Below are positions 29,348-29,693 of a stretch of 64,000 bases of DNA, piece after piece. The position numbers and the translations under genes were made by a program. The notes below the pieces were generated by a model. It was not told the DNA's origin. It saw only the letters and a program-made list of their open reading frames with translations, and made no database searches. Positions within the stretch are counted from its first letter, which is position 1. Each line of letters starts with the position of its first letter. The stretch spans positions 816-64,815 of the forward strand of contig JALTLO010000022.1 in NCBI GenBank assembly GCA_027001995.1. Reading direction: 5' to 3'. Source of the stretch: Planctomycetota bacterium (lineage in GTDB: Bacteria > Planctomycetota > GCA-002687715 > DRQF01).

Positions 29348-29693
29348 TTAGAAACCGCTCTTCACCTTGGCGGACACTTTATCGTTCTTGAAAGTAATCG
29401 TGATGAGCTTGGAGCCATCTTCCCATTTGTAGGCGACGCAGCCCACCTTCACGAAGGGGGCGGCGCTGCCGCCGGAGTTGACGTGCACCGCCCGGGCGAT
29501 GACCTCCTCCCCCGTGCCGCTCTCCCCCCGCACCACCACCGCCGGTGTGCTTACCAAGAATGGCTTCAACTTCTTCCAAAGTCATGCCATCTTTGATTTT
29601 ATCATAGCTGTCTTGGGAAATACCGCCCCCACAGGCCACAACGAGGAGCAGGGCCAACATGGCGAGAGACCGCAGGATTCGAGTCTTCATCAA
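29348..29693 (-). pseudogene. Small BLIP-like lipoprotein gene disrupted and frame-shifted by a GC-rich insert encoding a sigma-54-activator Walker-A segment
   Basis: Frame A gives a lipobox signal (LLLVVAC) plus [21 protein letters not shown]. Frame B gives ...[27 protein letters not shown]. The 29456-29552 stretch between them is about 73% GC. It reads [28 protein letters not shown], which matches the [8 protein letters not shown]..ARAIH.......PFV.VNC signature. Confidence 0.55.

What the first reader, a model, noticed from the sequence alone, without database searches (positions are those of the whole stretch)
29348..29693. GC-rich fragment of a sigma-54-activator AAA+ domain spliced into a small lipoprotein gene
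This small lipoprotein gene carries a roughly 100-bp, high-GC insert that breaks its reading frame.
- The 5' part encodes a lipobox signal and [21 protein letters not shown]. The 3' part, in a different frame, encodes ...[27 protein letters not shown], which is typical of BLIP-like small lipoproteins.
- Between them, about 29456-29552, is a stretch of roughly 73% GC; flanking DNA is about 48%. In the downstream frame it reads [31 protein letters not shown].
- That matches the Walker-A region of bacterial enhancer-binding proteins (GESGTGKE-[LV]-ARAIH-x-S-x-R-xxx-PF-[IV]-x-[VL]-NC) at nearly every conserved position.
- It is not copied from the norR in this window ([30 protein letters not shown]). 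The compositional jump suggests a foreign patch, probably from a high-GC organism, recombined in-line and frame-shifted.
- A copy of the CGATCTCATGAAG repeat lies 155 bp away. Either this is a rare natural micro-transfer or recombination scar, or an assembly or engineered chimera.
Basis: seen in the sequence. Interest (0 to 1): 0.8.

Follow-up and report, generated by a model that had tools for sequence, protein, structure and literature searches.

The report
Probable assembly chimera in lipoprotein gene
An 85-base, GC-rich piece that looks like part of a foreign sigma-54 activator gene replaces 27 bases of a small lipoprotein gene in this one deposited contig only, while otherwise base-identical assemblies of the same hydrothermal-vent population have the gene intact, so it is most likely a local assembly error and not biology.

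Summary
On the minus strand, a lipoprotein gene (29348-29690) is split into two frames by a 75%-GC segment. In the downstream frame that segment reads as a Walker-A fragment of a sigma-54 activator (Pfam PF00158, E 2e-8).

The boundaries need correcting. It is a replacement, not an insertion: window 29436-29520 (85 nt) stands in place of 27 native nt (net +58, a frameshift). The "VVVRGE" start of the motif is native Gly-linker DNA read out of frame.

The intact 94-aa gene is present in three other public assemblies:
- Two are 100.000% identical to the window over 12.5 kb and 20.3 kb of flanks. One of them is from read set SRR10312491 (Brothers volcano).
- The third is a 93%-identical relative with 18 synonymous and 0 nonsynonymous differences.

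The patched allele occurs on one NCBI contig only. No donor was found anywhere. The patch has Glu in place of the Walker-A lysine, which was Lys in 96 of 96 natural sequences carrying the same 23-mer. A k=31 assembly of the same read set breaks 10 nt from a junction.

Best explanation: a local assembly or scaffolding chimera, seeded because the native G-rich linker resembles the sequence just upstream of the Walker-A motif (about 0.75). The main rival is a natural short-patch illegitimate recombination event (about 0.17). Interest is low.

The parts
29348..29690 (-). Small lipoprotein gene (BamE/BLIP-like), disrupted in this record. The intact allele is 285 nt / 94 aa.
   Evidence: Intact 94-aa product P0001 is found at the same locus in L001/L003/L005. 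The window copy is 58 nt longer and frameshifted.
29631..29690 (-). Signal peptide with lipobox ([20 protein letters not shown]; Cys20 at 29631-29633).
   Evidence: Translation. VVAC-GGG is invariant in six orthologs.
29521..29549 (-). Native GC-rich (76%) Gly linker, [10 protein letters not shown]. Its +1 frame reads VVVRGE and its DNA resembles the sequence just upstream of Walker A in high-GC EBP genes. This is the left junction.
   Evidence: Identical in the intact records. GC. Up to 17/20 nt identity to the aligned site in natural EBP genes.
29436..29520 (-). 85-nt foreign patch, 75% GC, encoding (E)[29 protein letters not shown]. It is a Walker-A-region fragment of a sigma-54 activator AAA+ domain and replaces 27 native nt (residues E57-G66, [10 protein letters not shown]).
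   Evidence: BLAST breakpoints against L001/L003. PF00158 hits. BLASTN to sigma-54 regulators. No donor found.
29348..29435 (-). Native 3' part of the lipoprotein gene ([28 protein letters not shown] plus stop; strands beta2-beta4), now out of frame with the 5' part.
   Evidence: 100% identical to the intact records. Strand assignment from the AF2 model.
29379..29690 (-). Frame-A ORF, 103 aa. This is the product actually on record for the source contig (P0006).
   Evidence: P0006 sequence equals the window translation. One NCBI contig of 85,975 nt, cluster of one.
29348..29569 (-). Frame-B ORF, 73 aa, TTG start. It carries the EBP-like peptide fused to the native C-terminus. No gene is called for it in the collection.

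Best explanation
The patch is most likely a local mis-assembly in the deposited contig, not a feature of the organism's genome.

The true gene is the intact 94-aa BamE/BLIP-like lipoprotein. Its Gly linker is encoded by GGTGGTGGTGCGGGGGGAGA. Read one base out of frame, this is VVVRGE, and at the nucleotide level it closely resembles the stretch just upstream of the Walker-A box (GESGTGKE) in high-GC sigma-54 activator genes.

Proposed sequence of events (inferred, not shown):
1. This site was poorly covered in the read set, so the graph had open contig ends (tips) on both sides.
2. The contig end ran from the native linker into low-coverage, error-containing reads of a foreign EBP gene, through the shared G-rich k-mer.
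3. The assembler's gap-closing or scaffolding step then rejoined that tip to the downstream native contig on a short, imperfect overlap (...TGCGT|CGCC...).
4. The result substituted 85 foreign nt for 27 native nt.

What is shown: the exact replacement, its absence from sister assemblies, the EBP-like nature of the patch, its defective motif, the lack of any donor, and a graph break at the site. What is inferred: the assembler mechanism and the identity of the assembler.
For: 1. Flank identity. The window is 100.000% identical to GCA_015485455.1 WFTN01000397.1 over 2930+9610 nt, and to ENA scaffold REYS20-1_SAMN12239307_METAG-scaffold_203 over 10170+10088 nt on the two sides of the patch. Both carry the intact gene. 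Elsewhere there is 1 mismatch in 8631 nt, and three Logan SRR10312491 contigs match at 100%.
2. Allele counts. The intact allele is on 4 contigs. The patched product P0006 is on one NCBI contig and is a cluster of one.
3. Conservation. Six orthologs are all 94 aa with no indels. The 93%-identical relative has 18 synonymous and 0 nonsynonymous changes, so the gene is under strong constraint.
4. Repeated assembly of one read set. SAMN12239307 = SRR10312491 = Brothers volcano sample S139. That read set was assembled and deposited at least twice with different assemblers: MEGAHIT k31-151 and metaSPAdes k21-127 scaffolds.
5. Graph break. Logan k=31 contig L007 from that read set ends at window 29425, 10 nt from the 29435/29436 junction. 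With contigs of about 2-6 kb, a break this close is expected by chance in roughly 0.5% of cases.
6. Not a faithful copy of a working gene. Walker-A Lys is Glu, although 96 of 96 GTDB genomes carrying the same 23-mer have AAG (Lys). The conserved Arg (90/95) and Asn (81/95) are both Gly.
7. No donor. There is no peptide-exact match to either half of the patch in JGI metagenomes or to its first half in GTDB representatives, no protein sharing three 5-mers among 5.8 billion, and a best identity of 71% among 1.84 billion representatives.
8. Why this site. The native 20-mer is up to 17/20 identical to the aligned site of natural EBP genes.
Against: - No reads could be examined, so the patch's read support is unknown.
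- The source record itself could not be retrieved. Its assembler and sample are inferred, not known.
- A pure de Bruijn path error cannot create the right junction, which shares only about 4 nt (CGCC). An extra gap-closing or scaffold-overlap step, or chimeric reads, has to be assumed. My recollection that SPAdes joins tips on short imperfect overlaps was not tested here.
- The patch size (27 to 85 nt) and its microhomology-flanked structure also fit natural short-patch double illegitimate recombination.
Confidence: 0.75

Rival explanations
1. It is a real, very recent natural allele. [quoted passage not shown] This replaced 27 nt with 85 nt and inactivated the gene in one subpopulation or sample.
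For: - The anatomy fits SPDIR. It is a short heterologous replacement within the 3 to about 100 bp range, flanked by microhomology (G-rich on the left, CGCC on the right), and foreign DNA can serve as template (bioRxiv 10.1101/2023.11.22.568220).
- The patch is genuinely EBP-like coding DNA.
- Both junction sequences exist in a deposited record.
Against: - SPDIR is extremely rare, about 1e-13 per cell and locus in wild-type A. baylyi.
- The flanks show 0 differences in 20 kb from intact-allele assemblies.
- The event destroys a gene under strong purifying selection.
- The allele is seen in only one assembly.
- No donor exists in any searched collection, and the patch carries substitutions at near-invariant functional residues that a faithful copy of a working gene should not have.
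Confidence: 0.17
2. Chimeric DNA molecules were made in vitro during Nextera/PCR library preparation, by template switching between the lipoprotein gene and a foreign EBP gene at the G-rich stretch. These were sequenced and the assembler chose them.
For: - The libraries were Nextera, PCR-amplified.
- G-rich microhomology at the left junction favours template switching.
- This would supply real junction k-mers without needing a gap closer.
Against: - It needs two switches within 85 nt that return precisely to the same gene.
- Such molecules would be rare compared with native fragments, and two other assemblies recovered the native path.
Confidence: 0.05
3. It is a functional novelty: a lipoprotein that gained an AAA+-derived segment, expressed through programmed frameshifting or as two new small proteins.
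For: Only that two ORFs overlap across the patch.
Against: - The fragment covers 40 of 168 profile positions and lacks the Walker-A lysine.
- The patch removes the beta1-beta2 hairpin of the fold.
- All six orthologs are 94 aa with no indels.
- No slippery site or RNA motif was found.
- The allele is unique.
Confidence: 0.01

Closest known systems
Inter-genome chimeric joins and local misassemblies in short-read metagenome assemblies (MAG contigs)
   Same: - A short foreign segment from a widely conserved, high-GC motif (EBP Walker A) sits at a low-complexity G-rich site.
- It is present in one assembly of a population and absent from others that are base-identical.
- A k=31 assembly of the same reads breaks at the site.
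   Different: It is unusually small (85 nt) and returns to the same gene, so two junctions are needed. Only one of them has a long shared sequence. Read-level proof is missing.
[quoted passage not shown] 2016, as described in bioRxiv 10.1101/2023.11.22.568220)
   Same: A heterologous segment of under 100 bp replaces a short native segment between two microhomologies, and foreign DNA is a possible template.
   Different: - No donor was identified.
- No experimental or read-level support.
- The patch is not a faithful copy of a functional gene.
- The event would have to reach consensus frequency in a wild population while inactivating a conserved gene.
Bacterial enhancer-binding proteins (sigma-54 activators, Pfam PF00158), e.g. 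the window's own NorR at 21163-22701
   Same: The patch aligns to the Walker-A region (profile positions 23-62): GESGTG.E...ARA.H..S.....PF..V.C.
   Different: - It is only a 29-36-aa fragment.
- The Walker-A Lys is Glu, the conserved Arg is Gly and the Asn is Gly.
- There is no Walker B, GAFTGA loop, lid or HTH.
- It is 75% GC against 52% for the host, and unrelated in DNA sequence to the local norR.
BamE / BLIP / DUF3862-type small lipoproteins
   Same: The intact allele has a lipobox signal peptide and a two-helix plus four-strand fold. Its best PDB matches are BamE and BLIP / putative BLIP.
   Different: The sequence matches to these Pfam families fall below their curated cut-offs. Its function here is unknown. 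In the window the gene is broken.

Membership tests
Sigma-54 activator AAA+ domain (PF00158) | Significant match to the family profile | tested here: met
   34.4 bits, E 2.2e-8 (cut-off 20.2) for the 73-aa ORF. The patch-only peptide scores 21.5 bits, E 2e-4.
Sigma-54 activator AAA+ domain (PF00158) | Complete AAA+ module (Walker A and B, GAFTGA loop, arginine finger; about 168 profile positions) | tested here: not met
   Only profile positions 23-62 of 168 are present. The flanking sequence is lipoprotein.
Sigma-54 activator AAA+ domain (PF00158) | Walker-A lysine (GxxxxGK) | tested here: not met
   The patch has GTGEE. All 96 GTDB genomes carrying the same 23-mer have Lys.
BamE/BLIP-like small lipoprotein | Signal peptide with lipobox cysteine | tested here: met
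   LLVVAC-GGG, with Cys20 invariant in six orthologs.
BamE/BLIP-like small lipoprotein | Helix-helix-four-strand fold matching solved BamE/BLIP structures | tested here: met
   For the intact allele only. AF2 pLDDT 78, with H26-31, H38-45 and four strands. The top Foldseek hits are BamE 7tt0_E and 5wam_B and BLIP-like 3d4e and 3e2k_C, with probability about 1 but weak E-values of 0.03-0.3.
BamE/BLIP-like small lipoprotein | Pfam score above the curated cut-off | tested here: not met
   BamE 19.0 bits (cut-off 23.2), DUF3862 17.1 (25) and BLIP 12.6 (26.7). The collection's precomputed label is PF07467.
BamE/BLIP-like small lipoprotein | Uninterrupted reading frame in this window | tested here: not met
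   A net +58 nt splits the gene into two frames.
Assembly chimera / local misassembly | Absent from independent assemblies of the same population | tested here: met
   The gene is intact in L001/L004 and L003, with 100% flank identity, and in L005. The patched product is unique to one contig.
Assembly chimera / local misassembly | Graph discontinuity or low coverage at the site in the reads | tested here: inconclusive
   Logan k=31 contig L007 from SRR10312491 ends at 29425, 10 nt from the junction. Coverage itself could not be inspected.
Assembly chimera / local misassembly | Junctions lack consistent read and mate-pair support | not testable with these tools
   No read-level data are accessible.
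SPDIR (natural short-patch illegitimate recombination) | Short heterologous replacement (3 to about 100 bp) bounded by microhomologies | tested here: met
   27 nt are replaced by 85 nt. The left junction lies in GGTGCGGGGGGAGA and the right junction at CGCC. Size range.
SPDIR (natural short-patch illegitimate recombination) | An identifiable donor sequence that the patch copies faithfully | tested here: not met
   No donor was found in the window, GTDB representatives, JGI metagenomes or the protein collections. The best matches are 72% at DNA level and 71% at protein level.
SPDIR (natural short-patch illegitimate recombination) | The allele exists in cells (reads, PCR or an isolate) | not testable with these tools
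   This needs read mapping or PCR on sample DNA.

The most novel reading that the evidence does not exclude
The patch is a genuine in-vivo short-patch double illegitimate recombination event in an uncultured hydrothermal-vent bacterium. In it, 85 nt of a foreign, high-GC sigma-54 activator gene replaced 27 nt of a conserved lipoprotein gene at microhomologies. That would be an environmental, cross-lineage example of a mutation mechanism so far characterised mainly in Acinetobacter baylyi.
Probability: 0.15. Interest if true: 0.5.

Novelty: not a real feature. Interest (0 to 1): 0.12.

Why it matters
Its main value is as a caution. One deposited MAG contig carries a 58-nt net error. That error turns a conserved lipoprotein gene into a pseudogene and has put a spurious 103-aa protein (P0006) into public protein collections.

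It also shows how a native G-rich linker that resembles a very common motif (the EBP Walker-A region) can seed a cross-genome join too small for standard chimera checks to notice.

If read mapping instead showed the allele to be real, it would be a rare natural example of microhomology-mediated capture of foreign DNA. That would be of moderate interest for how microindels arise in the wild.

Tried and rejected
- **Donor in the window:** blastn-short of the patch against the whole window found nothing longer than 14 nt. norR's Walker-A region is unrelated at DNA level.
- **Donor elsewhere:**
  - Wobble-degenerate patterns for GTG[KE][10 protein letters not shown] (GTDB representatives), [KE][10 protein letters not shown] (JGI metagenomes) and [12 protein letters not shown] (JGI metagenomes) gave 0 hits.
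  - A word-indexed search of 5.8 billion proteins returned no candidate. A first attempt failed because the query was too short.
  - phmmer against 1.84 billion representatives gave at best 71% identity.
  - The 96 GTDB loci sharing a 23-mer reach at best 61/85 nt.
- **Planted or benchmark edit:** rejected. The frame-A product is already in the public collection from an NCBI contig.
- **Retrieving the source contig:** exact look-ups of both window ORFs and of P0006 returned nothing.
- **Mobile element, MITE or diversity-generating retroelement (DGR):** no target-site duplication, no terminal inverted repeats and no template copy in the window.
- **RNA element:** no Rfam match near threshold.
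- **A co-occurring related strain as the cause of the Logan break:** P0002 comes from a different run (ERR2639424), and the SNP positions of the 93% relative do not coincide with 29425/26.
- **Two-colour-chemistry G-bias as the source of the changes towards G:** not applicable. The libraries were run on a HiSeq 3000.
- **Link to the CGATCTCATGAAG repeat:** rejected, because the repeat is unchanged in the intact records.

Full report
**1. What is in the sequence**

On the minus strand, window 29348-29693 holds two overlapping ORFs.
- Frame A (29379-29690/93) reads [57 protein letters not shown], followed by Gly/Arg-rich sequence.
- Frame B (29348-29569) reads ...[63 protein letters not shown].

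Between them, GC rises to 0.77 in a 100-nt window. This is the highest value in the 64 kb, where the mean is 0.517 and the sd 0.044.

Frame B hits Pfam Sigma54_activat (PF00158) at 34.4 bits, E 2.2e-8, profile positions 23-62 of 168. BLASTN against plasmids returns annotated sigma-54 regulators of Azospirillum, Roseomonas, Shinella and others at 72-78% identity. Nothing else in the window resembles the segment, and the local norR does not either.

**2. Exact anatomy, from comparison with public copies of the same locus**

A neighbouring gene led to GCA_015485455.1 contig WFTN01000397.1. There the lipoprotein gene is an uninterrupted 94-aa ORF: [94 protein letters not shown].

That record matches the window at 100.000% over 2930 and 9610 nt on the two sides of a single discrepancy. 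Window 29436-29520 (85 nt, 75% GC) stands where the record has 27 nt, AGCCATGGGCATGAAAATCAGTGCCGG. The net change is +58 nt, which shifts the frame.

So this is a replacement, not an insertion. The GC-rich 29521-29549 is the native Gly linker, [10 protein letters not shown]. Its DNA, GGTGGTGGTGCGGGGGGAGA, reads VVVRGE in the +1 frame, so the first residues of the 'EBP motif' are native DNA. The patch-only peptide still reaches the PF00158 cut-off (21.5 bits, E 2e-4).

**3. How widespread each allele is**

A homology search with the intact protein found six 94-aa orthologs without indels. It also found P0006, a 103-aa protein identical to the window's frame-A ORF. P0006 is on one NCBI contig of 85,975 nt and is a cluster of one. 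The patch is therefore in a deposited record, presumably the window's source, and was not introduced into the window afterwards.

The intact product is on four contigs:
- ENA scaffold REYS20-1_SAMN12239307_METAG-scaffold_203 (93,710 nt). It is 100.000% identical to the window over 10,170 and 10,088 nt either side of the patch.
- The WFTN01000397.1 contig described above.
- GCA_054016375.1 JBPMDC010000116.1, a relative at about 93% DNA identity. Its gene differs by 18 synonymous and 0 nonsynonymous substitutions.
- One further similar contig that the tool did not show.

Other public contigs match the window with 1 mismatch in 8631 nt (window 53039), or match perfectly. In about 31 kb of comparable sequence, the patch is essentially the only difference.

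**4. The intact gene**

An AlphaFold model built from the six orthologs has pLDDT 78, two short helices and four strands. Its best solved-structure matches are BamE and BLIP / putative BLIP, with weak E-values but high probability. Pfam scores for BamE, DUF3862 and BLIP are below their cut-offs.

The replaced residues, E57-G66 ([10 protein letters not shown]), form the beta1-beta2 hairpin. The frameshift also disconnects beta2-beta4 from the rest. If the patched allele were real, it would be a pseudogene of a gene under strong purifying selection.

**5. The patch as an EBP fragment**

I found no donor.
- Wobble-degenerate DNA patterns for the first half of the peptide (GTDB species representatives and JGI metagenomes) and for its second half (JGI metagenomes) had no match.
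- The word-indexed protein search returned no candidate.
- phmmer against 1.84 billion representatives gave at best 71% identity, for example [38 protein letters not shown].

The 23-mer GAGAGCGGCACGGGGRAGGAGGT occurs in 96 GTDB genomes, mostly Gemmatimonadota, Myxococcota/'Deltaproteobacteria' and Acetobacteraceae. All 96 encode Lys at the Walker-A position where the patch has Glu. The best identity over the 85 nt is 61/85. The patch also has Gly in place of the conserved Arg (90/95) and of the Asn of VNC (81/95). It therefore looks like a corrupted copy of an EBP gene, not a faithful copy of a working one.

**6. Provenance and assemblies**

SAMN12239307 = SRR10312491 = sample S139, a Brothers volcano hydrothermal deposit (supplement of PMC9793634). 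The reads are HiSeq 3000 Nextera libraries (PMC7768687). They were assembled in two ways:
- MEGAHIT, k 31-151.
- metaSPAdes 3.12, k 21-127, with MAGs built from the resulting scaffolds (PMC9793634).

I could not retrieve the source record, so attributing it to one of these pipelines is inference.

In the Logan k=31 assembly of SRR10312491, contig L007 ends at window 29425, 10 nt from the 29435/36 junction. The next long contig starts at 30233. With contigs of about 2-6 kb, a break this close is expected by chance in about 0.5% of cases. This suggests a coverage or graph discontinuity at this site in the reads.

**7. Why here**

The native 20-mer upstream of the left junction is up to 17/20 identical to the aligned site of natural EBP genes, among only 96 examined. 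That gives a plausible seed for a cross-genome k-mer join. The right junction shares only about CGCC. A pure graph path error is therefore not sufficient, and a gap-closing or scaffold-overlap join (recalled behaviour of SPAdes, not tested here) or chimeric reads must be assumed.

**8. Verdict**

| Explanation | Estimated probability |
|---|---|
| Local assembly/scaffolding chimera specific to one deposited contig | about 0.75 |
| In-vitro library chimera | about 0.05 |
| Functional fusion or recoding | 0.01 or less |

- The SPDIR anatomy fits: microindels of 3 to about 100 bp, and foreign templates are possible (bioRxiv 10.1101/2023.11.22.568220). Against it are its rarity (about 1e-13 per cell and locus), the zero divergence of the flanks, the uniqueness of the allele, the missing donor and the defective motif.
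- No mobile-element, DGR or RNA signature was found.
- The nearby 13-mer repeat is part of a longer motif of about 22 nt with five copies. It is unchanged in the intact records, so it is unrelated to the patch.

Only read mapping or PCR can settle the question. Until then, the feature should be treated as a probable artefact of low biological interest.

Noticed in passing
window 7954-7966(+), 29177-29189(-), 38913-38925(+), 42438-42450(+), 57255-57267(+): The 13-mer CGATCTCATGAA[GT] has 5 copies against 0.15 expected. When aligned, the conserved core extends to about 22 nt (ACGATCTCATGAATGAGYCNGG). The copies lie mostly in intergenic or gene-end positions. It may be a regulatory or REP-like motif. 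It is identical in the public records with the intact lipoprotein gene.
   Followed up: partly
window 53039: This is the only other difference found from sister assemblies. The window has T where GCA_015485455.1 WFTN01000502.1 has G (1 mismatch in 8631 nt).
   Followed up: partly
L005:4741-5025 (GCA_054016375.1 JBPMDC010000116.1): A relative at about 93% DNA identity encodes a lipoprotein identical in amino-acid sequence, with 18 synonymous and 0 nonsynonymous differences. This is unusually strong constraint for a small protein of unknown function.
   Followed up: partly
window 29425 and 30233 (ends of Logan contigs L007 and L002, SRR10312491): The k=31 assembly of the same read set breaks on both sides of the 29426-30232 interval. 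One break is 10 nt from the patch junction. This suggests low coverage or graph branching around this locus.
   Followed up: partly
window 29286-29322: A GC-rich hairpin (GAGGCCCCCA / TGGGGGCCTC with a 10-nt loop) followed by ATTTTTT lies between the convergent genes 28455-29168(+) and the lipoprotein gene(-). It is a likely intrinsic terminator. The consensus scan missed it because of the loop length.
   Followed up: no
window 18667-22701: A divergent pair: a NorB-like nitric-oxide reductase (cytochrome-c-like domain plus COX1, minus strand) and a GAF/sigma-54-activator/HTH_8 NorR-type regulator (21163-22701, plus strand). An ECF sigma factor and a TPR Ser/Thr kinase lie next to them. This is the window's only genuine EBP.
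   Followed up: partly
window 56501-56640: The second-highest local GC in the window (about 0.68 per 100 nt) lies inside ORF 56484-56936(-). This region is outside the parts I could compare with sister assemblies, so it was not checked for a similar patch.
   Followed up: no
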